Shown here piece after piece: positions 2,241-56,035 of a stretch of 64,000 nucleotides of DNA; the stretch's first letter is position 1, and every line of letters starts with the position of its first letter. Source of the stretch: Mustelus asterias (taxonomy: Eukaryota); NCBI RefSeq assembly GCF_964213995.1, contig NC_135823.1:48980001-49044000 (forward strand), read 5' to 3'. The translations under genes and the position numbers were made by a program. The notes under the pieces are model-generated. The model was not told where the DNA came from, searched no databases, and saw only the letters and a program-made list of their open reading frames with translations.

Positions 2241-2886
2241 TATGTTCTTTGAAATGTGCACAAGGCAGCACTGGAAGGTTTGATTGTGAATGTTTATTAA
2301 AACTACCCTGCATATCCTTCAGCTTCAATTATTAGAACTCAGAAATTATACTTCCATCTGAGCACACAATGTGGTCCATCTTTGACTTTAACAGAGATGT
2401 TATTTTAAATACCTTTAAAACAATGAACAAGGGAACTTCCTCGGAATGAGCAACACGTTTGTGCAAAATCACAATTTCCACATAATTTTGCTTGTACGAA
2501 ATATTTTAATGTATTTTTGGAAAATTAAACATTTGTGACCTTGTCAGATTTTTAACTGCCTTTCAGTGTATCCTTTGTCCATCACTGTATTGTAAGCTCT
2601 AATCTGCAATACAGATCCGGAAGTACAGTCCCAGTCTGATTGCTCTCTGGGGTCACTGTCAGCTCTCTTCTCTCCTTTTGTCCGTCTTTCTCAGTCTTGT
2701 TCCAGCACTTGGTCTCTGTTTTTCTCATTCCATGTCTTCCACTGCTTCTATTTATTTCTTTCTCTCTAACTTCATATCTCTATCGAAGGTTCAGTGTGGT
2801 TTATATATGGAATAATGGTTATCCCCAGTTGCAGGTTGGAATCTAATTGAGGCGTGCGTGTGGGGTGCTGGGGTATATATAGCATT

Positions 2887-3544
2887 GATGTGGAGATGCC
2901 GGCGTTGGACTGGGGCAAACACAGTAAGAAGTCTCACAACACCAGGTTAAAGTCCAACAGGTTTATTTGGTATCAAGGCATGGTACATTGGGGAAACCAT
3001 GCAGACGCTACGACAACGGATGAATGAACCCCGCTCGACAATCACCAGGCAAGAGTGTTCTCTTCTTGTTGGGGAACACTTCAGCGGTCACGGGCATTCG
3101 GCCTCTGACCTTCGGGTAAGCGTTCTCCAAGGCGGCCTTCACGACAACGCAGAGTCGCTGAGCAGAGACTGATAGCCAAGTTCCGCACACATGAGGACGG
3201 CCTCAACCATGATCTTGGGTTCATGTCACACTATCTGTAACCCCCACGACTTGCCTGGGCTTGCAAAATCTCACTAACTGTCCTGGCTGGAGACAATACG
3301 CATCTCTTTAACCTGTGCTTAACCCTCTCTCCACTCACATTGTCTGTACCTTTAAGACTTGATTACCTGCAAAGACTCGCATTCCAACCATTATTTTGTA
3401 AATTGAGTTTGTGTCTTTATATGCCCTGTTTGTGAACAGAACTCCCACTCACCTGATGAAGGAGCAGCGCTCCGAAAGCTAGTGGCTTGTGCTACCAAAT
3501 AAACCTGTTGGACTTTAACCTGGTGTTGTGAGACTTCTTACTGT
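2887..3544 (+). mobile_element. Penelope-like element copy A (5'-truncated GIY-YIG end, pLTR and inverted terminal piece)
   Basis: From ~2976 it encodes AWYIGETMQTLRQRMNE.., matching ORF 28920-29801. 2887-2972 is the reverse complement of the element terminus. Flanks GTATATATAGCAT (2873-2885) and GTAAATATAGCAT (3543-3555) form a TSD with 1 mismatch. Confidence 0.9.
3449..3485 (+). ncRNA. Minimal type I hammerhead ribozyme motif in Penelope pLTR
   Basis: ucac-CUGAUGA-A-GGAGC(agc)GCUCC-GAAA-GC-UA-gugg: catalytic core, 5-bp stem II, stem I ucac/gugg and palindromic AGCU in place of stem III. Confidence 0.8.
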
Positions 3545-16493: not shown

Positions 16494-17151
16494 CTGTGAG
16501 GAAGAGAAATAACAGGTGCATGAATTGGGCCTCTCCAATCAGGGTAATATTTAATCACTGAAACTAAATTATCTCCTTCAATTGGAGAAAAATGCAACAT
16601 GAGGGAAGCTGATTATTGGGACTTTCTCCAATTTTGCATTTGTTCAACAGATACAGTAACACTCCATCATTAGCATTGGAAGACTTTCCTCCATCACCCA
16701 ATTGGACGCATTTAATCTCTCACGCTGAAACAGATTGTCCAATTAAACATGATCAACAAATTAATGTCATGGCAAAGGAGTATTGCTTTCCAGTCCTTTT
16801 TTTGTTTCAGTAAGAGACACACAACAGCTATTCTCAATGTATGCGACAAACGATTGAAAGGGATTCGCAATGCCCCTTCTGGAGTGTTTGGAAAATGTCC
16901 CTTTTCAATGTTTGAATCACTGTATTTTTTTTCTGCATTTATATTTGATATAAAAGTGCTTGCAACTTAACTTGGTGTATTTGAATGATAAACTACTTCA
17001 AATTATCAAAAAGAAATAGTTAAAACAAGCCCTCTGCCCCTACCCCTTCCTATTCTAAGTGCTGTAACCCTCTCTCCGATTCGGAGTGGTTTTGTCTCAG
17101 CACCTCAGTCCCCTGCTGGAAACTGTACAAATGGATCAATTGGAGCCTGAC

Positions 17152-17317
17152 CTTGCTGAGTTTCTCGCCATCAGTGTGTGGTATCAGTGTTTTCAGGGAC
17201 TGGAACCCAGCGTTGATGCTTTGCATTCGGCGCCGCTCATTGCTGTTGGCAATTTCTCTCCGTATCCTCCTCTCCTGGTCTCTCTGAGACTCTTGGGTCA
17301 GTGGGATATTAGCCAAG
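17152..17317 (-). CDS. TFAP4: TFAP4 coding exon 2 (basic region and helix 1)
   Basis: ttccag|(S)LANIPLTQESQRDQERRIRREIANSNERRRMQSINAGFQSLKTLIPHTDGEKLSK|gtcagg; 166 nt; phase fits exon 1. Confidence 0.98.
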
Positions 17318-18169
17318 CTGGAATATAATATCAAGACAATCATAACTTTATCCCTCCCACTCACTTTCTAACAATTTCTCTTGCAGGACTTCACCTGAAT
17401 GACCATTATTCAATTGTAAAAACATTTTCGTGGTCTATTTGACTCCACTGGCATGGCCGTCATGTCCAATCCCATTCTCACCTGGTACCCATCTACTCAA
17501 CAGCTTCTATCAGGGGTCACTGGTATGTGACAGACTCCCCATTCCACAACACAAGAGACAATGAATCCAATGTGAGTGGCGTAATCTGCTGTACCAGAAA
17601 GCCTGCTGGTCTGAACCCTCTGCAGGCAATTAACACAGGTTCCCACTTCTTTTCACACTAAGTCTACCACACAAATACCTGCAAAATTTGATTACTGATC
17701 CAGTAATCAAAATGGAACCATACTGGCGAGTAAGATCCAGAGGTGTTAGATAGTTAAACAGACAGAACTTTGCCCACATTTTTGTATCTCCATTATTTTC
17801 TGTACCTACATCGATAATAAAAGTTGCCAGTCAGGTTGTAATGACTGCTTCCTGCCAATTGTGTTGTAGCACAAGGGAGTGCAGTTACAGTGAGACACGT
17901 TTTAGGTGTAGGTACCAGAAATGTAAAACAGGAATTTACAAAGGAAACTATCAACAGGAAGTACATACAGATGCAAAATTTCAATTATGTTGATTTTTTT
18001 AATGCAAAAGGAATGTTAAAAAAAAGCAAAATTGTTCATGCAGCCTGCATCAGAATTTCAACGATAAATTAACAAGTCGTTTTCAATTGCAGAACTTCTT
18101 AACTCAATAATTATTAAACATTTTCTCACTCCAGACAATTTCCTTAGCCTTTTCAGTGCGTGGACATGA

Positions 18170-21789: not shown

Positions 21790-23350
21790 TAATTTACATA
21801 GGCGTTGAGTGGAGGTCAGGTTGAGCTGGATGAATTTGGTTTTGGGGCAAGGGGGGGTAATCCTTTCTGCAGCGTAAAACTACAACTCCCAGAGTTCCGA
21901 GCAGCCAAGATGGACTACAGCTCCCACGCTGCCGCACGCCCGCTACCTCCAGCTGGGCTGCAGAGGAGCAGGCAGGCCCGAAGCTCTGCACGGCCCCAAC
22001 ACTAGCTGCAGATGGGGGGGGGGGAGGAGATGAGCTGATCAGTGCTTCGCATCGCCCCCGAAGAACCGACATGGGGGAAATCTTTCAGACATTTTGTTTT
22101 TAAAAATCCGACCCGATGGCCCGCAAATTACACCCGGAAAGTAACCACTGGACCCACGTGCGCCCCTGGGGCGAGGAGGAGGGGGGATTGTTTGGACTCC
22201 GATTGAGAGAGGAGAGTGAGAGATGGATCGGTGACCGGGAAGTGGGCGCATCAACACTCCCCCGCCCCCCCCCCCCCGCTACCTAGCTCGGGCAGCGTGG
22301 ATGCAGCGCTTCCCACGTGGGTGTGTTTGGAACCTCCGAATGTATCCATTCCGCTTTGGAACGTTGCCCTGGAGCCGCCGCGTTCCAAACCCCGAATCCA
22401 CGTGGAACCCTTCCTGCAGCCCCATCACTCAGCAACAACACCGCATCCCCCACCTCTCTGTCTCTCCTCCTCCTCCTGGGGCTCTGCAAGCTCCTCCATG
22501 CAGACAGCAGATGGAGCCTTGCTTGTTAGTAGCAAAAGAAAAATGATATATATATATTTCCATATTTATAAATGGGGAGAGAAAAGTACACACCTACAGA
22601 GACCTCCTATCACTTCTTTCTCACTCTTCCTGAATTCCTGGAATGACGGTACCTTTTGAGTCGGCACCACGAAATATTCCATGTCTTGCACCTGGAGAAA
22701 AGAATTGTCCAGAAATAATAATTGTGTTAAATAAAAGGCTGGCTGAGTGCAGGTTCTGTGTGTGTGTTTCCAGCTGATCGCTCTATCAGATGGTTGTAAA
22801 TGGCGGGAAACAGCTGGTGCTTTCGCAGCACCGCCGCCTCCTTCCGCCGGGACCGGGATTGCATGTAAACAAAGGACTATTCCCCCCGGTCCTCTCGCCA
22901 AGCTCCCGGACAGACTGCAGCCAGGTTACCGGTTCGCTTCTCAAAAAAGGGGCTTCGTCGCAAAGTGGGAAGAGGGGGCACACTTGGGGTGAAAGGGGAA
23001 AAGAGGAAATGGGCAATGATCAGTTAGAGAAGGGGGATGTTTCTGCATACGCCACTACGTGTGTGTGTGTGTGGGGTGAAGCGGCTCATCAGCTGACGGG
23101 CTGGCAAAAGCTGAGAGGAAAAGCAACAGCTTCTGTGACATTGGAGCAGCTGAGAACACAGAGAGGCGCAAATACAACCCCACCCGCCCACTTACTCCGA
23201 CTCTGCTTTAAAGAGACACATCCTTTTGCATATTTAAAGCAACATTCGGCGTTAAAAAGTACTGCGGAGAAAGCGTCGATCGTAGTAAGAGGGGAAGGAA
23301 CTGCTGGGGATTTCCGTGAAGTGCAACAAGCTGGAGGATCTCAATATTAA
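21790..23350. promoter_or_regulatory. TFAP4: TFAP4 CpG island (promoter, exon 1 and start of intron 1)
   Basis: Visibly CpG- and GC-rich against an AT-rich background; CACGTG x3, CAGCTG x5, E2F-like TGGCGGGAAA (22801-22810) and ACTACAnnTCCCA x2. Confidence 0.8.
22594..22682 (-). CDS. TFAP4: TFAP4 coding exon 1
   Basis: MEYFVVPTQKVPSFQEFRKSEKEVIGGLC+AG|gtgtgt; 89 nt. The seven exons sum to 1014 nt, or 337 aa plus stop. Confidence 0.97.
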
Positions 23351-24905: not shown

Positions 24906-25505
24906 AAAACCTAAGGGCAGAGAAGAACAAGGACACATAATAGGGGGTGGGGAGAGGGGGGTCTAAAGAGAAAAGTGGAGAAGGGATAAAGGAGGAAATA
25001 GTAGTGATGGGCTCGGGTTGAGAGCGCCTGCCAAAGTGTACACAAAAGGTGGCAAGGTTATAAATTAGATCAAGATAACTAAGATTGAAATACATGTAGG
25101 AGTAGAGAGGAGTTAAGACATAAGTAAAAATAACGATTTAAAATCACCTCTTCTTGATTGCTCTTCTCATCCCATGAAATAATGTTGCCAATTTCAGAGA
25201 AATCATGCCATGTTCAATCGCACTCCTTGTTTAGTCCTGTGGCAGCTTGTGGCTTCTTAACCCCTCTATTCTATTAGGCAGGAGATAAAAGCTGTTTTAA
25301 TTAATCTTCCAAATTCCTCCAACATTAGCTCGGATGATAGGAAACTGATATTTGAACACTTGGAAGAAGGTAGGGCCAAAGGCTGCAAATATGAGTTTGC
25401 TCAGGTTATTTTCTCTCTGTCATAAAGCTATGGGTTTAAACTCAGCACAGTAAGAAGTCTCACGACACCAGGTTAAAGTCCAACAGGTTTATTTGGTAGC
25501 AAATA

Positions 25506-25540
25506 CCATGAGCTTTCGGAGCTTGCTGCTCCTTCGTCAG
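25506..25540 (-). ncRNA. Hammerhead core lacking its native 5' stem I strand
   Basis: Minus strand CUGACGA-A-GGAGC(agcaa)GCUCC-GAAA-GC-UC-augg, preceded directly by ORF-derived GGAUGUC. Confidence 0.6.
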
Positions 25541-26332
25541 GACATCCTTTCCTGCAGCGTATCAGGTAGACAACGTTGGCCGAGTTGCAAGAGTATGTAC
25601 CGTGTACCTGGTAGATGGTGTTCTCACGTGAGATGATGGCATCCGTGTCGATGATCCAGCATGTCTTGCAGAGGTTGCTGTGGCAGGGTTGTGTGGTGTC
25701 ATGGTCACTGTTCTCCTGAAGGCTGGGTAGTTTGCTGCGGACAATGGTCTGTTTGAGGTTGCGTGGTTGTTTGAAGGCAAGAAGTGGGGGTGTGGGGATC
25801 TTGCAACTCGGCCAACGTTGTCTACCTGATACGCTGCAGGAAAGGATGTCCCGAGGCATGGTACATTGGGGAAACCATGCAGACGCTACGACAACGGATG
25901 AATGAATACCGCTCGACAATCACCAGGCAAGACTGTTCTCTTCCTGTGGGGGAGCACTTCAGCAGTCACGGACATTCAGCCTTGGATCTTCAGGTAAGCG
26001 TTCTCCAAGGTGGCCTTCACGACACACGACAGCGCAGAGTCGCTGAGCAGAAACTGATAGCCAAGTTCCGCACACATGAGGACGGCCTAAACCGGGATGT
26101 TGGATTTATGTCACATTATCAGTAACCCCCACAGCTTGCCCCTGGTCTTGCATAATCTCACCAGCTGTTCTGTCTGGAGACAATACACATCTCTTTAACC
26201 TGTGTTTAATGTTCCCTCCAACCACATTATCTGTACCTTTTAAGACCTGGCTGGCTGTAGAGATTTGCATTCTAATTAGTATTCTGTAACTTGAATTCTG
26301 TGTCTGTGCACTGTTGGAGAACAGAGACCACT

Positions 26333-26371
26333 CCATCTGACGAAGGAGCAGCAAGCTCCGAAAGCTTATGG
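26333..26371 (+). ncRNA. Minimal type I hammerhead ribozyme motif
   Basis: ccau-CUGACGA-A-GGAGC(agcaa)GCUCC-GAAA-GC-UU-augg; stem I ccau/augg covaries with cac/gug of the other copies. Confidence 0.82.
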
Positions 26372-26774
26372 TATTTGCTACCAAATAAACCTGTTGGACT
26401 TTAACCTGGTGTTGTGAGACTTCTTACTGTGCTTACCCCAGTCCAACGCCTGCATCTCCACATCACATTTAAACTCAGCACCAGGATTTAAATGTAGAAC
26501 CTAGATTGGGAGCCATTTGTGTTTTGATTTATCATTAAACTAAGATCCTATTTGCCTGTTCGTGTGGAACAACTCGGGAGTTCTCCTGACTCGTATTTAT
26601 CTCTGAGTCAACACCAAAAACAGAATATCTGGTCATTCATCTCATTGTTGTTGCAGGACCTTGCTCTATCCAAATTGGCTGCTGTGTTTCTGACATTACA
26701 ACAACAACTTCACAAAGATGTAATTAATTAGCTGTTGTAAACACATTAGGATGACCTGGGGACATGAACAGCAA

Positions 26775-27415: not shown

Positions 27416-28967
27416 AGATAGAAGAAAACTATTGCAAATATGTAATTCATAATACATATGTTTTGGAAAATAACTTCTGGTTCAAGGAATTAAAGTTTCA
27501 ATTCTAGAAAATGGGGACATCTGAGAAAATCGTAAAACAAATCTGATGTAAAGGCAACTCAAACAAGTCTGGGCTTATTGCACTTAAAATGTAGCCTGTG
27601 TTTATCTTGCTAGGTCAACGCTAATTGTGAAAAACCTGAACAATGAATGATCATCTCTAAGTTTGTAATGGAGCCAATGAGTCTGGAGTGTGGTAAATTG
27701 CATCCATTCAAAATATAAATTATTCATATGGGTCACAGAATCAAAAAGTTGTGTTGAAGGTAAAAAATAATTGTTTGCAGTTTTGTTTGAATCATCCTGA
27801 AACATGTCATATTGCACAGACGTAGTGATTCAGAGTGGATCCTTTTTCACTTTGTGTTTACTGACAGAAGCAGGCATTTCAGTTCAGGTTTCATGAAGAG
27901 AAAGAAGCTGGAGGATTTGCTCTAGCTTGCAGCTAATTGAGGAAATCTACCGTGGTCCTCTCAGGGCCTTGTGGCAGAAAGCAGTCAATTTGAGTTGTTA
28001 GCTTGGAAAGAGCTGTACAGAAAGTATAGGAAAAGACTGGAATAAAACAATCTGTGTATTCCCAAAGCTAGAACAAGGAGCTGAGCCATGAAAAATGCTG
28101 GATGATTGCTTAGTTAAAAGATACTGGAAGGATCCCCATTAAATTGGAATTGCTGGAATGAGTTCTTCCTCATGTCCCCTCTGCACCTTCTGTCAATTAT
28201 CTTGAATCTATGTCCCCTGGTGCTAGAATTCTCCACCAAGAGAAACAATTTTATCCTATCCACTCTATCTCTTCCGCACATAATTTTGTACACCTCAATC
28301 AAATCACCCTTCAGTCTCCTATTCCAAGGAAAATAACCCCAAATATCCTATTTCTCCTTATAGCTTCACTTTTCAAACCCTGACAACATTCTTATAAACC
28401 CCCTCTGCACTCTCTGCAGAGCAATTAGGTCCTTCCTGTGATATGGTGACCAGAATTGCATACAATACTTGAGTTGTAGACTCACCAGTGTTTTATACAA
28501 TACAACAGTATATCCTTACTTTTATATTCTATACCTCTGCCAATGAAGGAGAGCATTCCAGATGCCTTCTTTACAACCTTGTCCACTTTAACTGCTGCCT
28601 TTAGGGACCTGTGTATATGCAAGATATCTCACTTTATCTACCCCTCTTAGTATATTCCCATTAATTGTGTACTCCTTATAATTGTTTGACCTCCCTAAAT
28701 GAATGACCTCACACTTCTCTGTGTTAAAATCCATCTGCCACTCTACCGCCCGCTCCACCAACCCATCTATATTGTTTCACAGATTATAGCTATCCTCTAC
28801 ACTATCCACTACTCAGCCAATCTTTGTGTCACCTACAAATTTCCTAATTGTGCCCCCCACATTCAAACCCAAATCATTAATATATAACACAAACAGCAAG
28901 GGTCCCAACACCAAGTCCTGTGGAACACCACTTGATGTGGAGATGCCGGCGTTGGACTGGGGTAAAC

Positions 28968-29801
28968 ATCCCCTACGGACAAGCCCTCCGTATACACAGG
29001 ATCTGCTCGGATGAGGAGGATCGCAACAGACACCTCCAGACGCTGAAAGATGCCCTCATAAGAACAGGATATGGCGCTCGACTCATTGATCAACAGTTCC
29101 AACGCGCCACGGCGAAAAACCGCACCAACCTCCTCAGAAGACAAACACGGGACACAGTGGACAGAGTACCCTTCGTTGTCCAGTACTTCCCCGGAGCGGA
29201 GAAGCTACGGCATCTCCTCCGGAGCCTTCAACATGTCATTGATGAAGACGAACATCTCGCCAAGGCCATCCCCACACCCCCACTTCTTGCCTTCAAACAA
29301 CCGCACAACCTCAAACAGACCATTGTCCGCAGCAAACTACCCAGCCTTCAGGAGAACAGTGACCATGACACCACACAACCCTGCCACAGCAACCTCTGCA
29401 AGACGTGCCAGATCATCGACACAGATGCCATCATCTCACGTGAGAACACCATCCACCAGGTACACGGTACATACTCTTGCAACTCGGCCAACGTTGTCTA
29501 CCTGATACGCTGCAAGAAAGGATGTCCCGAGGCATGGTACATTGGGGAAACGATGCAGACGCTGCGACAACGGATGAATGAACACCGCTCGACAATCACC
29601 AGGCAAGACTGTTCTCTTCCTGTTGGGGAGCACTTCAGCGGTCACGGTCATTCGGCCTCTGATATTCGGGTAAGCGTTCTCCAAGGCGGCCTTCGCGACA
29701 CACGACGGCGCAGAGTCGCTGAGCAGAAACTGATAGCCAAGTTCCGCACACACGAGGACGGCCTCAACCGGGACATTGGGTTCATGTCACACTATTTGTA
29801 A
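28968..29801 (+). pseudogene. 5'-truncated Penelope ORF: RT C-terminus, Cys-rich linker and GIY-YIG endonuclease
   Basis: Uninterrupted frame IPYGQALRIHRICSD..PCHSNLCKTC..NVVYLIRCKKGCPEAWYIGET..RMNEH..HF..H..GLN; no native start and no RT catalytic core. Confidence 0.88.
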
Positions 29802-29994
29802 CCCCCACAGAGTTTCACTGGCTGTCTTGTCTGGAGACAATACACATCTTTTTAGCCTGTCTTGATGCTCTCTCCACTCACGTTGTTTTGTTTCTTAAAG
29901 ACTTGATTAGTTGTAAGTATTCGCATTCCAACCATTATTCATGTAAATTGAGTTTGTGTCTTTATATGCTCTGTTTGTGAACAGAATTCCCACT

Positions 29995-30031
29995 CACCTG
30001 AAGAAGGGGCTTGCAGCTCCGAAAGCTTGTG
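29995..30031 (+). ncRNA. Minimal type I hammerhead ribozyme motif
   Basis: cac-CUGAAGA-A-GGGGC(uugca)GCUCC-GAAA-GC-UU-gug; stem II retained through a G-U pair. Confidence 0.8.
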
Positions 30032-30760
30032 TGGCTTTTGCTACCAAATAAACCTGTTGGACTTTAACCTGGTGTTGTTAAACTTCTTACTGTGAACACC
30101 ATTTGAAACAGCTTTGAATTTGCATGGGCATCCATCAATCATTACCCTTTGTTTCCTGTTACTAAGTCAACTTTCTATCCAGCTTGCCACATTACCCTGT
30201 ATCCCATGGGCTTTTATTTTTATGACCAATCTGCCATATGGGATCTTGTCAAACGCCTTGCTAAAATCCATGTACACAACATCCACTGCACTACCTTCAT
30301 CAACCCTTCTTGTCACTTCCTCAAAGAATTCAATCAAATTTGTGAGGAAAATCTTTGTTTGATCTTCCCCTGTATTCTAGACAACCAGGGTGGTCTAGAT
30401 TTGGCAGTAACACTTTTATTTTTGGAGGGGACATGTCTATGTTTTACATTTAGGATCTCGTTTTTTAGTGCTTCCCACTTGTTTTCCACTACTTTATCCT
30501 CTGGCAGTGCTGACCAGTCCACCTCAGCCAAATCCCTTCTCATTTCTGCAGAATTTGCCTTTCTCCGGTTCAAAACTTTTACTCCTGCTTTATCTCTGTC
30601 CTTTTCCATGGTAATGCTAAATCTAACTGAATTGAGATCACTATTCCCATTATGGTTGCCAACTGTCACTTCATCCACTTGCCCTTCTTCATCCCCTAAG
30701 TCTAGGCCTAGATTGTATCTCCTCTTGTTGGGTTTATCACTAATTGGTTGAAAATAGATT

Positions 30761-47984: not shown

Positions 47985-50085
47985 ACCGATCGCCAGCGAT
48001 CCGCTCGACACAATGATCCACCCGACACAGCGATCCACTCTGGATGCAGTAATCCACACCATATGCAGTGACCCACTCGGGACACAATGATCAATTCCAT
48101 ATACAGCGATCCACTCCCGATACAGTATTCCACTAGACACAGCGATCCACTCCCGATACAGTAATCCATTAGACACAGCGATCCACTCCCGATACAGTAA
48201 TCCACTAGACACACCGATCCACTCCCGATGCAATAATCAACTCCATATACAGTGATCCACTGCCAACATAGCGACCCCTCCCTGGCACAGTAATCCACCC
48301 GACACAGTGATCCACTCCCGATGCAGTAATCCACTCCATATTCAGTGACCCACTCGGGACACAATGATCAATTCCATATACAGTGATCCACTCCCGATCC
48401 ACTGCCAACATAGCGACCCTTCCCCGACACAGTGATCCACTCCCGACAGAGCTAGCCACTCCACACAGTAATCCACTCCAGATGGTGATCCACTCTCTAC
48501 ACAGCTATCCACCCCACACAGTAATCCACTCCAGATAGTGATCCACTCTCTACACAGCTATCCACCCCACACAGTAATCCACTCCAGACATAATGATCCA
48601 CTCCCGATACAGTAATTAACTCCCTATATAGCAATGCACCCAGACACAGATCCACAACCGACACAGTGATCCACCCTCTATACAGTGACCCACTCCCGAC
48701 ACAGTGATCCACCCTCTATACAGTGACCCACTCCCGACACAGCGATCCATCCGACACAATGGTCCATTCTACACTGCGATCAACTCCCAGCATCATGATC
48801 CATCGACATAACGATTCACTGCTGACACAATGATCTACTTTCTATACAGTGATCCACGTCACACTGCGATCCACTCCGACACGGTTATCCACTCCCGACA
48901 CAATGATCCACTCTCAACACAGTGATTCACCCCACACTGCAATCAGCACCTACACAGCGATCCATTCCCAACATGACGGTCTACTGCACCACAGTGATCC
49001 ACTCCCAATATTTAGATCCGACCGCCACAGCGATCCACTCCCGACACAGAGATCCATCCCAGCATTGCGCCCCACCCGACACCCTATAGAGATCCACGCC
49101 CAACGTCGCGATTAACTCCCTACATAATGATCCACTCCAAGCTTTGTAATCCATCCAAACATTGCGACCCAATCCCGACACAGTAATCCACCCTAAACTG
49201 CGAGCCACCTCGAACACAGTGATATACTCCCTTCAAGGCGACACATTCGACACATTGATCCACTCCAAACACTGCAGCCACATCCTGAACATCGATCCAC
49301 TCTCAACATTGTGGCCCACCATGCAAGGATCCACTCCCTACACAGTGATCTACTCCCTGCCTCCCAATGTATTCAGTGATCTACTCCCTATGCTATTATT
49401 TACATCCTACATATTGATACAGGTCCAACATTACAATCCACCTCTACACCGCGATCCACTCGGTGTACAAGAATCTACTCCCTATACTGCGAGCCACTTC
49501 CAATGTTACAATATTACACCCCAAGGTCAAACTGTGACCCACTTCCTGTGTAACGCAAAGATCCACTTCCCACACCGTGATCCACTCGCTACTCAGTGAC
49601 CTACTTCCAGCATTCACATTGCGACCCACTCCCTACATGTTAAACAGTAAACCACACTCAACTTTCCATATGATCCACTCAATACACTGTGACTCACTCC
49701 CAGCATTACACTCTGATATACCCCGAGTATCACACTGGGATCCGCTTCTAGTTTTGCACAGTAATCAATTCCCAGCATCATGCTGCAATCTACACATAGT
49801 ATCTCACTGTAACCTACTTCCATTTCACACTGTGATCCATTTCCTGCGTTGCGCTGTAATGCCAGCATGACACTGTGATCTACTCACAATATCACACCAT
49901 AATCTACTCCTAGTATCACACAATGGTCCACTTCCAGCGTTGCACTGTAATCCATTCCCAGTATTACTCTGTGATCCTCTCCCAGTGTTACTCTGTGGTC
50001 TGCTCCCAGTGTTACTCTGTGACTCACTCCCAATATTATTCTGTGATCCTCTCCCAGTGTTCCTTACTCTGTGACCCACTCCCAG
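47985..50085 (+). repeat. Degenerate minisatellite, ~19-bp unit ACACAGTGATCCACTCCCG, about 2.1 kb
   Basis: Recurrent GATCCACTCCC every 17-21 nt; local higher-order units such as a 36-bp dimer x3 at about 48100-48215. Confidence 0.9.
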
Positions 50086-50699: not shown

Positions 50700-51125
50700 A
50701 GGTCCTCCATCCCTGAGTACCCACTGCCCACCCCCAAGTACCCCCTTCCTAAATTCCCCCACTCCCTGGGTTTCCCCTCTCCCTGAGATTCCCACTTCCC
50801 AAATTCCTCTTCTCTCTCCAAATTCTCCTCTCCCCGAGTTCCCCTTCTCCCTGAGGTTCCTCTCTCCCTGAGCTCCTCCTCTCCCTGAGGTCCCCCTCTC
50901 TCCGAGTTCCCCCTCTCCCAAAGGTCCCCCTTTCCCCGAGCTCCCCCTCTCTTCGAGCTCCCCCTCTCTCCAAGCTCCCCTTCTCCCTGAGGTTCCTCTC
51001 TCCCTGAGCTCCTCCTCAGAGGTCCCCCTCTCTCCGAGTTCCCCCTCTCTCTGTATTCTTTCTCTACCGGAGTTCGCTCTCTGCCTGAGTTTCCCCTTCT
51101 GCCTGAGTTTCCCCTTTTCCTGAGT
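50700..51125 (+). repeat. Pyrimidine-rich tandem repeat (~19-20 bp, CCTGAGTTCCCCCTCTCT-like)
   Basis: Repeated GAG(T/C/G)TCCCC(C)TCTCTCC units with strong strand asymmetry. Confidence 0.85.
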
Positions 51126-51850: not shown

Positions 51851-53634
51851 AAGATCTGCAATAGGTTGTTGGTGGGATATGTGAGTGAGGGCAAGTCCAG
51901 CATACTTCATATTGAATATGATTCTCACAACTGCCTGTACTTTGGCTTGTGTTAAATTAGCTTCCCATTGGCTGCTACTGCATCGCACCGAACATAAATT
52001 TCCCAGCCCCATACCCAGCACCTGCTGATCTCTGCAGAGCAGATACTGAGGCACTGAACATGGCCTCAACTTGGGGTTAGAACCATAAAACCCCTACTGT
52101 GCAGGAGGCCATTCAGCCATTCATCGAATCTGCACCAACTCAGAATCTTACCCAAGCCCACACCCTCGCTTGCCTGATCCCCGTAACCCCTAATTCCCCT
52201 AACCTACACAATTTGGGACACGAAGGGACATTTTAGCATGGCCAATCCACCTAACCTGTTCATCTTTGGATTGTAGGGGTTGTAGGGGACAGGGCAGGGA
52301 ACATTGAACCCAGGACTCTGCTTTGGTCTGCTATCCCTACGGCAAAGTGCGCATGTGTGAATAGGTCAAGCTTGACCATGATGCCTGTCTTGGTGAAACA
52401 TCTTAGCATCATTATTGACTCACTGTCAGTGACCACATAAGGAGTGACCATTTCTGTTGTGTCAAGGTCATGGAGATGGTGCAGAGGAGATTTACTAGAA
52501 CGGTATTAGGCAGTTAAAGTACTTGAGAATGGCCTGAGGTTGTGGACCCACTATAGAAATGCACATATTTCTTTCTATTTCCAAAGTATTTTACAGACAA
52601 TGAAGTACTTTTGAAATGTAATCACTGTTACAATGTGGGCAACACAGTAGCCAATCTGGGCCCAGCAAGATCCTACAACCTTTTAACAACTAGATGGTTT
52701 GGGGATGCTGGCTGAGGGGTGAATGTTGGCCAGGACACCGGGTGAACTCCTCTTCATGGAGTGGCTCACTTTCTGTATTAGTGGAGACTTGTTCAAATTT
52801 TGGGGTTTAATGTTGGGCGAGGGGAGAGGGGGGGGTGAGTTTTTTCATATGTGGTTGTGTTGTTGGCATCTGTGCTTATGTCAGGTTCAGTGAACCAGCA
52901 GTTCAACAATGAAGTGCAGTAGTAAAATGGTTAAAGCACATCTTTTCAATGAAGAGCACTGGCAAATGTACAAAGCTGCTCTATCCAGGCAGCCATAGTT
53001 TGCTGCATTCCTGGGGTGGGAGCCAGCAGGCCTGTGTCTACACACAGGAGCTGAAGGCAATGTTAACTGTGTACAGATTGCAACAATCCTGCAGCATGGA
53101 TTAGAGAAAAAACTTCCAACTATTTTGAAAAGCAAAATTACTGAGTGGACTACTAGTCAGAATTACTGCTCCTAATTATCAGTCTGTTAACTACTTCTTG
53201 AATATAGATGTTAAGTGGGTTATGTTTGTGATTCCTCCCACAGCCAAATAGTCAGTGGACCAATTGTCTGGACTGACCTACAGAAGATGGTTCCATGGTC
53301 AAGTGCAGATGGTCTTTGTGCCTATGGAGCCATGGCATGAGATGTCACTGTCAGAAAGGCTGGGGAGCAATAGTTATTTAAGGATGTAAAGACATTTTTT
53401 AAGGATGTGGGCAGAGATGAAATGATTGAATCAGGCTATCCCCTCCCCCCTCCCCCACGCCCCCACCCCTCACACACACACACACACACATCAAGGTGGT
53501 CTGTGTTAGTGGCAGTGGCTGGCATGGCTGATGATCATGATGTGGAGATGCCGGCGTTGGACTGGGGTAAACACAGTAAGAAGTTTAACAGCACCAGGTT
53601 AAAGTCCAACAGGTTTATTTGGTAGCAAAAGCCA

Positions 53635-53671
53635 CACAAGCTTTCGGAGCTGCAAGCCCCTTCTTCAGGTG
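53635..53671 (-). ncRNA. Minimal hammerhead motif (left arm)
   Basis: Reverse complement of cac-CUGAAGA-A-GGGGC(uugca)GCUCC-GAAA-GC-UU-gug. Confidence 0.78.
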
Positions 53672-54141
53672 AGTGGGAATTCTGTTCACAAACAGAGCAT
53701 ATAAAGACACAGACTCAATTTACATGAATAATGGTTGGAATGCGAATACTTACAACTAATCAAGTCTTTAAGAAACAAAACAATGTGAGTGGAGAGAGCA
53801 TCAAGACAGGCTAAAAAGATGTGTATTGTCTCCAGACAAGACAGCCAGCGAAACTCTGTGGGGGTTACAGATAGTGTGACATGAACCCAATATCCCGGTT
53901 GAGGCCGTCCTCAACCGGGATATTGGGTTCATGTCACACTATCTGTAACCCCCACAGAGTTTCACTGGCTGTCTTGTCTGGAGACAATACACATCTTTTT
54001 AGCCTGTCTTGATGCTCTCTCTACTCACATTGTTTTGTTTCTTAAAGACTTGATTAGTTGTAAGTATTCGCATTCCAACCATTATTCATGTAAATTGAGT
54101 CTGTGTCTTTATATGCTCTGTTTGTGAACAGAATTCCCACT

Positions 54142-54178
54142 CACCTGAAGAAGGGGCTTGCAGCTCCGAAAGCTTGTG
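54142..54178 (+). ncRNA. Minimal hammerhead motif (right arm)
   Basis: cac-CUGAAGA-A-GGGGC(uugca)GCUCC-GAAA-GC-UU-gug. Confidence 0.78.
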
Positions 54179-54379
54179 TGGCTTTTGCTACCAAATAAAC
54201 CTGTTGGACTTTAACCTGGTGTTGTTAAACTTCTTACTATGGCTGATGATCACAGATTACTCACTTGTAGAAAGTAAAATCTCCAAATTGAATACAGAAC
54301 ATTTCCCAAGCTATTGCTCACAGTGGATTGGAGGAGATGGCAGAAGCTACACAGGAAGTTGCCATTTGGTTGCTTGAAC

Positions 54380-56035
54380 CTTCTCTGCTATCGTATGATC
54401 CCTCAACTTTCTTTATCTGCCTTTACTCAATATCCTTGATACTGTTATCCAACAAAATCTGTCAAACTTTGTCTTGAAAAGTTCAATTGACCTAAAACCT
54501 TTTCAGGAGTGAATTCCAGATTTCCACCACCCCGTGCATGGTAAAAGTGCTTTCTGATTTAAGCCCTGAGTGACCTAGCTCTAATGTCAAAATCACACCT
54601 ACCTCCTTATTCTGGACTGTCTCGCAAAAGGAAATTGTTTTTTCTGTATCAGTATTATTGAATCATTTTCACATTTGAAACACTTGATGTAGATCACCCC
54701 TCAAACTTCTAAACTCAAGGGAATCCAAACTAAGATTGTACAACTGTCCTCATCATCTAAACCTTTAAATCTTGGTCACATTCTAGTGAATCTGCCCTTT
54801 ATCCTCTCCAGGGCCAATATATTATTCCTAAATTGAAGCATCCAGAAATGAAAGCAGTCATTCCCAGACTGATCAAAGAGTCTGTGTACTTGAGGGTCTG
54901 ACCAAGGTCCTGTATAACTAAAGCATCATCCTTCACATTCCCCATGACTATAAAGTATATAATGTGTGATAGTGAAGTGAACAGATAATGGTGTTTCTTG
55001 ATTTGCTCAGTGGTTCAGTGAGGATTTTAGGGGAGTATGCCAGGAACATAGGAGCACAGGACCTAGGAGCATGAGGAGGCCTTTCGGCCCTTCAAACCTG
55101 TTCTGCTATTCAAGATCATGGCTGATCTAATTGCAGCCTTAATTCCACTTTCCTGTCTGCCCCCCTTAACTCTCGATTCCTTTGTCTATCAAAAATCTAT
55201 CTAATCAACCTTGAATAATTTGGGCCAATCTCCACTGCTTTCTGGGTAACAGAAATCCACAGAATAACAATCCATTGAGAGAAAAAAATTCTCCTCATCT
55301 CTGTCGTAAAAGGGAGACCTTAAACTATGTCCTCTAGTTCCAAGTCTCCCCCACATGAGGAAACATCTCCACAGTATCCAGCCAATCAAATCCACTCATG
55401 ATCTTATATGTTTCAATAAGATCACCCCTCATTCTTCTAGACTCCAATTGGTATCTTCATAAGATAAACCAGGAATGATTGAAGTTATTTATTTACTTTT
55501 TCTTTCATGGGATGTGGATGTCACTGGCAAGGCCAGCATTTGTTGCTAATCCCTAATTGCCCCTGAACTGAGTGACTTGCTGGGCCATTTCAGAGGGGCA
55601 GTGATGAGTCAACCACATTTCTGTGGATCTGGAGTCACATGTAGGCCAGATGGCAGATTTCCTTCCTTAAATGGGAATTATTGAACCAAATGGGTTTTCA
55701 TGACAGTCAATGATAGTTTCATGGTTACCATTACTGACATTGGCTTTCAATTGTAGGATTTATTTATTAAATTTAAATTCCACTATATACCATGGTGGGA
55801 TCTGAACCTGAGTCCCCAGATCATTAGCCTAGGCCCTGGATTGCTAGTCCAGAGACATTACTACCATGCCACTATGCCAGCTGTGCACAGTGCTTCAGTC
55901 TCACCAAGGCCCTGTACAGCTGCAGTAAAACCTCCTTACTTTTATATTCCATACCCCTTGCAATAAACATTCTACTTGCTGTATCTGCATACTAACTTTT
56001 TGTGATTCATGTATTAGGGCACCCAAATCCCTAGG
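54380..56035 (-). mobile_element. Stacked degenerate CR1 3' fragments with a nested LINE-tailed SINE (about 55497-55875)
   Basis: Two CR1 reverse-complement 3' regions (AGATCACCCCTCA, GGAGGCCxTTCGGCCC) plus the SINE reverse complement. Confidence 0.55.

What the first reader, a model, noticed from the sequence alone, without database searches (positions are those of the whole stretch)
53538..54238. Near-perfect 330-bp-arm Penelope palindrome with a hammerhead on each strand
Seen: two arms with about 3 transition mismatches by eye around a 4-nt loop, a 14-bp TSD and almost no coding sequence. The turn is at GAGG-ccgt-CCTC, a mini-hairpin native to the element (GAGGACGGCCTC near the ORF end). 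Inference: cDNA snapped back on this hairpin and copied itself, creating a MITE-like retro-product. Inside the presumed intron it would form long dsRNA (ADAR or Dicer substrate, possibly silencing its own family) that sequesters the ribozyme, and a cruciform-prone DNA site.
Basis: partly seen in the sequence, partly recalled or inferred. Interest (0 to 1): 0.7.

Follow-up and report, generated by a model that had tools for sequence, protein, structure and literature searches.

The report
Routine head-to-head Penelope retroelement insertion
This 700-base mirror-image stretch is an ordinary truncated insertion of a very abundant Penelope-type jumping gene, which leaves such palindromes all over this genome; it was likely built from two DNA copies started at the two cut ends of the target and joined head to head, and the small hairpin at its centre is not a preferred turning point.

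Summary
It is not special. The subfamily's 3' end has 51,959 exact matches, and 14 of 48 sampled two-armed insertions are symmetric within 5 nt (permutation mean 1.9). The GAGG-ccgt-CCTC hairpin is no hotspot: 68 palindromes turn in its zone against 157 and 112 in control zones, and a loop-less GGCC joint 4 nt away is as common (7 vs 5). Arms end at two fixed sites, and the tail arm is often the shorter (22 vs 9). One snapped-back cDNA cannot give that; two primings on one template can. A fold-back step in this copy cannot be excluded. Same-turn copies belong to different subfamilies, so this is not a MITE. The site lies between two divergent genes (likely TFAP4 and GLIS2), in no coding-region intron found; transcription is untested. 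Inverted units with tails, opposite-strand hammerheads, self-priming and siRNA from inverted copies are all published, and this scan noted two-primer readings in other genomes.

The parts
53524..53537 (+). Left target-site duplication, 14 bp
53538..53574 (-). 37-nt Penelope 'tail' (3' extension beyond the inner end site), on this arm only
   Evidence: defined in PMC11167929 and PMC8557442
53575..53904 (-). Left arm: 3' end of the element in reverse orientation; native element sequence continues through the loop to 53912
53632..53677 (-). Minimal hammerhead motif of the left arm
53901..53912 (.). Joint: GAGG-CCGT-CCTC, readable as a 4-bp stem with a 4-nt loop or as a 4-bp microhomology between two strands
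53909..54238 (+). Right arm: tailless 3' end of the element, ending at the inner end site
53910..53948 (+). Last 12 codons and stop of the RT-GIY-YIG ORF
54136..54181 (+). Minimal hammerhead motif of the right arm (core CUGAAGA...GAAA, 6-bp helix II, palindromic AGCU helix III, predicted cleavage triplet CUU)
54239..54252 (+). Right target-site duplication, 14 bp

Best explanation
This is a doubly 5'-truncated, head-to-head insertion of an endonuclease-bearing Penelope/Poseidon retroelement, likely made by two primed DNA copies of one template that were joined at a 4-bp self-complementary site. Shown: two arms of the element's 3' end, a tail on one arm, a 14-bp TSD, arms from one template lineage, and many sibling palindromes turning at other positions. 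Inferred: the element protein nicked both target strands 14 nt apart. One 3'-OH primed reverse transcription at the outer start site (tail arm), the other at the inner site 37 nt upstream (tailless arm), probably on the same RNA. Both stopped near one place, perhaps the RNA's broken 5' end. The CCTC end of one cDNA annealed to GAGG of the other, and each templated the other's second strand. The copy is most likely an inert, non-autonomous remnant. The two hammerheads are a by-product of the symmetry.
For: Two fixed ends: of 76 one-tailed two-armed insertions, 67 tailless arms stop within 0-4 nt of the inner site and 70 tail arms carry 36-38 of 38 tail letters. This matches the two RT start sites that bound the tail in vitro, with cleavage and extension of both strands (PMC11167929, parts 1-2 of 4 read). 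In 48 unbiased insertions the tailless arm is longer by >10 nt in 22 and the tail arm in 9 (binomial p=0.029), as expected if the tail-primed RT trails on the same RNA. Arms agree at 407 of 435 common-polymorphism cells, against 45% discordance for random pairs. Turn zones: 68 at the hairpin, 157 and 112 in controls. The loop-less GGCC joint occurs at 7 places and the hairpin joint with the same flanks at 5; a loop-less joint suits annealing between two strands better than a stem-loop. TSDs of 10-15 bp in 63 of 76.
Against: Symmetric joints are in strong excess (14 of 48 within 5 nt; permutation mean 1.9, max 8 in 10,000). Local fold-back predicts this directly, whereas my model needs the extra assumption of a shared stop point. 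In this copy the loop belongs to the tail arm, the orientation that a tail-first fold-back predicts, and the cDNA end can form the hairpin (-3.2 kcal/mol, z -0.5). Other sampled joints also have stem-loop form (L101, L117). The sequence of one locus cannot separate the two routes. Zone counts are not normalised for anchor conservation. Arm concordance could also come from gene conversion after insertion.
Confidence: 0.58

Rival explanations
1. Two primers plus fold-back: both target ends prime, but one cDNA snaps back on a local hairpin and copies itself until it meets the short cDNA from the other end.
For: Explains the symmetry excess, the one-template arms, both loop orientations and the two fixed ends. 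Self-priming at palindromic junctions was proposed for PLEs in PMC3846280 (passages).
Against: The native hairpin is not enriched as a turn. Loop-less palindromic joints are as frequent. 31 of 48 insertions are asymmetric by >10 nt.
Confidence: 0.3
2. One reading: one tail-first cDNA folded at GAGG/CCTC and copied itself.
For: The loop orientation and the 8-nt longer tail arm in this copy fit; the hairpin can form.
Against: It needs the copy to stop exactly at the family-wide inner end site and not run through the tail. It cannot produce the 22 of 48 insertions with a longer tailless arm, nor the 4 of 6 same-turn copies whose loop is on the tailless arm.
Confidence: 0.07
3. A self-propagating MITE-like palindromic unit.
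For: Six full copies share the same turn among 26 matches of the 18-mer.
Against: They differ in subfamily markers and indels (78-98% identity to this copy), TSD lengths vary, and the nearest relatives of this arm turn elsewhere or are asymmetric (L156, L070).
Confidence: 0.03
4. Assembly fold-back artefact.
For: No record spans the whole palindrome; only short-read contigs were available.
Against: The arms differ at 3 sites, the tail is one-sided and the TSD is exact. The right junction lies in contigs of three samples (X1, X3, X8; X1 may be the assembled sample). The same architecture recurs genome-wide.
Confidence: 0.02

Closest known systems
EN+ Penelope/Poseidon PLE insertion with an inverted 5'-truncated copy and one-sided 30-40-bp tail (PMC8557442 passages; Pen2a_Av in PMC3846280 passages)
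   Same: Head-to-head inverted unit, tail on one side, TSD, palindrome at the inverted junction, C-terminal GIY-YIG domain in the parent ORF.
   Different: Here both arms are cut to about 330 bp and are symmetric, so nearly no ORF remains; the host is a vertebrate with a very high copy number.
Anolis Poseidon PAc (PMC11167929, parts 1-2 of 4 read)
   Same: Two end sites bounding a tail; hammerhead just upstream of them in the terminal repeat.
   Different: The parts read give no account of how inverted arms are joined; activity of this family was not tested.
Dual minimal hammerheads on opposite strands, 100-700 bp apart (PMC4209133, part 1 of 4 and passages)
   Same: Minimal type-I motif without a stable helix III, one per strand, about 460 bp apart.
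   Different: Reported there in Schistosoma; helix II is 6 bp here; cleavage was not tested here.
Inverted Penelope copies as siRNA sources in transgenic Drosophila (PMC3681739 passages)
   Same: A long inverted repeat that could give dsRNA.
   Different: No evidence that this locus is transcribed.
L1 twin priming (recalled, from no call)
   Same: Both target nicks prime cDNA; the strands are joined by microhomology; an inversion results.
   Different: L1 arms cover non-overlapping parts of the RNA; here both arms cover the same 3' end.

Membership tests
EN+ Penelope/Poseidon PLE | Parent ORF with RT followed by C-terminal GIY-YIG endonuclease | tested here: met
   Sibling copy 28971-29798 gives Pfam GIY-YIG (E 1.4e-4, at cut-off). 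Locus L100 has a 915-aa open frame with a YIDD motif upstream of the same domain.
EN+ Penelope/Poseidon PLE | 30-40-bp tail on one end | tested here: met
   37 nt at 53538-53574; 70 of 76 siblings carry 36-38 of 38 letters.
EN+ Penelope/Poseidon PLE | Inverted 5'-truncated copy and variable TSD | tested here: met
   63 of 96 sampled subfamily ends have an inverted arm upstream; TSD 10-15 bp in 63 of 76.
EN+ Penelope/Poseidon PLE | Placement in the Penelope/Poseidon clade by RT phylogeny | not tested
   Assigned from domain order and structure only.
Minimal hammerhead ribozyme (PLE type I) | Core CUGANGA...GAAA and NUH triplet | tested here: met
   179 distinct family copies matched the core pattern (selected by it); N varies (A 123, C 35, T 18, G 3); the letters after GAAAGC are TT, TA or TC in 175 of 179.
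Minimal hammerhead ribozyme (PLE type I) | Helix II kept through sequence change | tested here: met
   All 15 commonest variants keep a 5-6-bp stem, with G-C/A-U, G-U/A-U and U-A/A-U swaps; helix II forms in the folds. Rfam found no hammerhead.
Minimal hammerhead ribozyme (PLE type I) | Self-cleavage | not testable with these tools
   Single minimal motifs showed no cleavage in PMC4209133; the PAc motif needed protein (PMC11167929).
MITE | Spreads as a unit, with homogeneous copies and fixed TSD length | tested here: not met
   Same-turn copies are of different subfamilies; TSDs vary.
Intronic hairpin RNA (ADAR/Dicer substrate) | Lies in a transcription unit | tested here: inconclusive
   About 31 kb upstream of one start codon and 37 kb upstream of a divergent one; non-coding 5' exons are not excluded.
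Intronic hairpin RNA (ADAR/Dicer substrate) | Small RNAs or A-to-I edits map to it | not testable with these tools
   No raw RNA reads of this organism were served.

The most novel reading that the evidence does not exclude
The thousands of two-armed copies in this genome record the unresolved Penelope integration cycle. Two reverse transcriptases primed from opposite target nicks copy the same RNA from two start sites 37 nt apart, the tail-primed one trailing and usually ending shorter. They often run off at the same RNA end and prime each other's second strand at short self-complementary words. This would explain tail, inversion, symmetry excess and arm identity with no fold-back.
Probability: 0.5. 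Interest if true: 0.45.

Novelty: new member of a known kind. Interest (0 to 1): 0.17.

Why it matters
The family statistics have some value. How PLEs make inverted structures is stated as open in PMC8557442, and the arm-length asymmetry, two fixed ends and joint words give predictions that the existing in vitro Poseidon system could test. The genome-wide load of long inverted repeats could matter for dsRNA biology in this animal, but nothing here shows it.

Tried and rejected
Rfam scan: no hammerhead; one chance miRNA hit at the turn (E 0.18). A first junction pattern (16-mer, 133 hits) mostly caught native copies with one changed base or single truncated arms (30 loci read), so it was not used for counts. 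Hairpin hotspot: rejected by control zones. MITE lineage: rejected. Two different source RNAs: looked for clustered arm discordance; 28 cells were spread over 20 insertions, 5 of them being the loop itself; one insertion (L157) differs by a 16-nt indel between arms. ADAR signature among variants shared by both arms: 1 A>G of 9 shared private variants, no signal. Sequencing runs: no RNA holder listed; only contigs could be laid, none spans the palindrome, and the central joint and left junction were not seen in a bridging record. The 88 letters that continue the organism B contig were not printed, so the empty site is inferred. A PDB look-up of the bHLH exon failed on frame, and the Atlas gave only 'HLH', so gene names rest on recall. 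Rows dropped: 7 of 87 candidate two-armed units with <90% element coverage, and 4 with no tail or two tails, before the tail counts. Literature searches for twin priming in Penelope and for shark Penelope palindromes listed nothing specific; the library lacks most subscription papers, so I do not claim the model is unpublished. No supplements were read.

Full report
Observation. The arms are 53575-53904 and 53909-54238, 330 bp each, with three transition mismatches around a CCGT loop. A 14-bp duplication flanks the unit at 53524-53537 and 54239-54252. The left arm has 37 extra bases (53538-53574) with no partner. Three more copies of the family lie in the window (2886-3544, 25446-26465, 28933-30094), and each starts with an inverted piece of the 3' end. 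The copy at 28.9 kb encodes the end of an RT and a GIY-YIG domain, so the parent is an endonuclease-bearing Penelope-like element. The palindrome keeps only the last 12 codons. The 3.68-Gb host looks like a shark from its repeats; that is my recall, not a tool result.

Hammerheads. Each arm has CUGAAGA, a 6-bp helix II, GAAA, a palindromic AGCU and a CUU triplet. Among 179 distinct copies picked by the core pattern, the 15 commonest helix II variants all keep a 5-6-bp stem through base changes. Rfam did not detect it. This is the minimal PLE hammerhead of PMC4209133 (part 1 of 4 and passages read), which already reports dual motifs 100-700 bp apart on opposite strands and found no cleavage by a single motif. 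One motif per strand follows automatically from the symmetry.

How common. A 24-mer at the subfamily's 3' end has 26,097 + 25,862 exact matches. I took loci around the first 100 listed matches (first 5 Mb of C1). Of 96 distinct ends recovered, 63 have an inverted arm upstream, 1 an inverted tail only, 31 nothing and 1 ran off the locus. Among 48 one-tailed two-armed insertions not selected for their joint (these loci, the flanks of the window and the window's other copies), 14 are symmetric within 5 nt and 17 within 10 nt; permuting arm lengths gives means of 1.9 and 3.2, maxima 8 and 10 in 10,000. Scaling up suggests several thousand near-symmetric palindromes; this is an extrapolation from one region. 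Most are shorter than this one, but one in the sample has 661-bp arms (L101).

Is the hairpin special? The exact 30-mer turn occurs at 4 places. A looser 18-mer gives 26 matches, of which 6, this copy included, are palindromes turning there. With equal pattern design (15-mer, 10-40 N, reverse complement), 68 palindromes turn in the hairpin zone, 157 in a zone nearer the 3' end and 112 in a zone further 5' (not normalised for anchor conservation). Of the 50 of 68 places listed, 2 have the exact turn; the rest use other short self-complementary words or carry small locally templated inserts (read by eye). A loop-less joint at GGCC, 4 nt away, occurs at 7 places (one on a small contig may be a duplicate), against 5 for the hairpin joint with the same flanks. 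So joints are scattered and favour microhomologies in general.

Mechanism. Three family-level facts need two priming events. First, arms end at two fixed sites: of 76 one-tailed insertions (selected and unselected), 67 tailless arms stop within 0-4 nt of the inner site and 70 tail arms carry 36-38 of 38 letters. PMC11167929 (parts 1-2 of 4 read) shows that a Poseidon protein cleaves and extends both strands and starts RT at two sites that bound the tail. Second, the tailless arm is longer by more than 10 nt in 22 of 48 and the tail arm in 9 (p=0.029). A single cDNA that folds back can neither give its copy a tail it lacks nor a copy longer than itself. Third, in 4 of the 6 same-turn copies the loop belongs to the tailless arm. 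Both arms come from one template lineage: 407 of 435 common-polymorphism cells agree, against 45% discordance in random pairs, and the discordant cells are scattered. I therefore infer two RTs on one RNA, the tail-primed one trailing, with the two cDNA ends annealed at CCTC/GAGG. Against this, the strong symmetry excess is what local fold-back predicts, this copy's loop sits on the tail arm, and the hairpin can form weakly (-3.2 kcal/mol, z -0.5). A two-primer route with a fold-back step stays a live rival.

Not a MITE. Same-turn copies differ in subfamily markers and indels (78-98% identity to this arm), and this arm's closest relatives (99%) turn elsewhere or are asymmetric. TSDs are 10-15 bp in 63 of 76 and were not found in 9 (the finder allowed offsets and 1-2 mismatches).

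Reality and age. Contigs from three samples of organism A carry the right junction (X1 54215-54900 with no differences, X3, X8); X1 may be the assembled sample, and no record spans the palindrome. A contig of organism B aligns from exactly 54239, skips the element bases offered at 54230-54238 and goes on for 88 unprinted letters: likely an empty site. Its flanks differ by 7 of 530 and 11 of 635 letters, more than the 0.9% between the arms, which fits an insertion after that split. The arm divergence is typical (median 0.8% in 32 subfamily insertions). The palindrome has lasted long enough to gather three unshared changes, which gives no sign of unusual instability.

Context and dsRNA. A bHLH exon lies at 17.1-17.3 kb on the minus strand and its first coding exon starts near 22,682. 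A zinc-finger gene starts on the plus strand about 27 kb beyond the window's end. From recall these are TFAP4 and GLIS2. The palindrome lies between their divergent start codons, in no coding-region intron that I found; 5' non-coding exons are not excluded, and my exon scan covered only the 150 longest of 305 candidate frames. If transcribed, the RNA would form a 330-bp duplex (-646 kcal/mol) that buries the hammerhead. siRNAs matching inverted Penelope copies are already reported in Drosophila (PMC3681739, passages). Expression could not be tested.

Known versus new. PMC8557442 (passages) describes an inverted 5'-truncated copy and a one-sided 30-40-bp tail as usual for PLEs and calls the mechanism open. 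Earlier unchecked notes of this scan reached two-primer readings in other genomes; my reading was recorded before I saw them, and they are not independent support. Verdict: real, ordinary, a new member of a known kind; interest 0.17.

Noticed in passing
window 16.4-22.7 kb (-): Coding exons of a bHLH gene, by recall TFAP4: start near 22682, bHLH exon near 17150-17320, next exon near 16495.
   Followed up: partly
L145:7227 (+) and L146:6100-7050 (+): Start and C2H2 zinc-finger exons of a divergent gene, by recall GLIS2; the order matches the human locus as I recall it.
   Followed up: partly
window 47990-50060: Degenerate 17/19/24-bp tandem array with raised CpG content (o/e about 0.7), followed by a 17-bp C-rich array at 50742-51115.
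   Followed up: no
window 28933-30094: Family copy made of an inverted tail only plus a tailless sense body, the arrangement expected if the tail-primed cDNA stopped at the second primer site; 1 of 96 sampled ends is of this kind.
   Followed up: partly
matches listed: Many joints carry short locally templated duplications, a pattern I recall for polymerase-theta end joining or repeated RT template jumps.
   Followed up: no
L157 / L162 (G000:C3:95.09 Mb): The arms differ by a 16-nt indel of the kind that separates subfamilies, though otherwise nearly identical: a candidate two-template event or a slip.
   Followed up: partly
L090:928-1200: Six tandem copies of a ~46-nt element segment at the joint between arms.
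   Followed up: no
L100:1207-3954: 915-codon open frame (RT plus GIY-YIG) in a family copy, indicating a young family; used only as a coordinate reference.
   Followed up: partly
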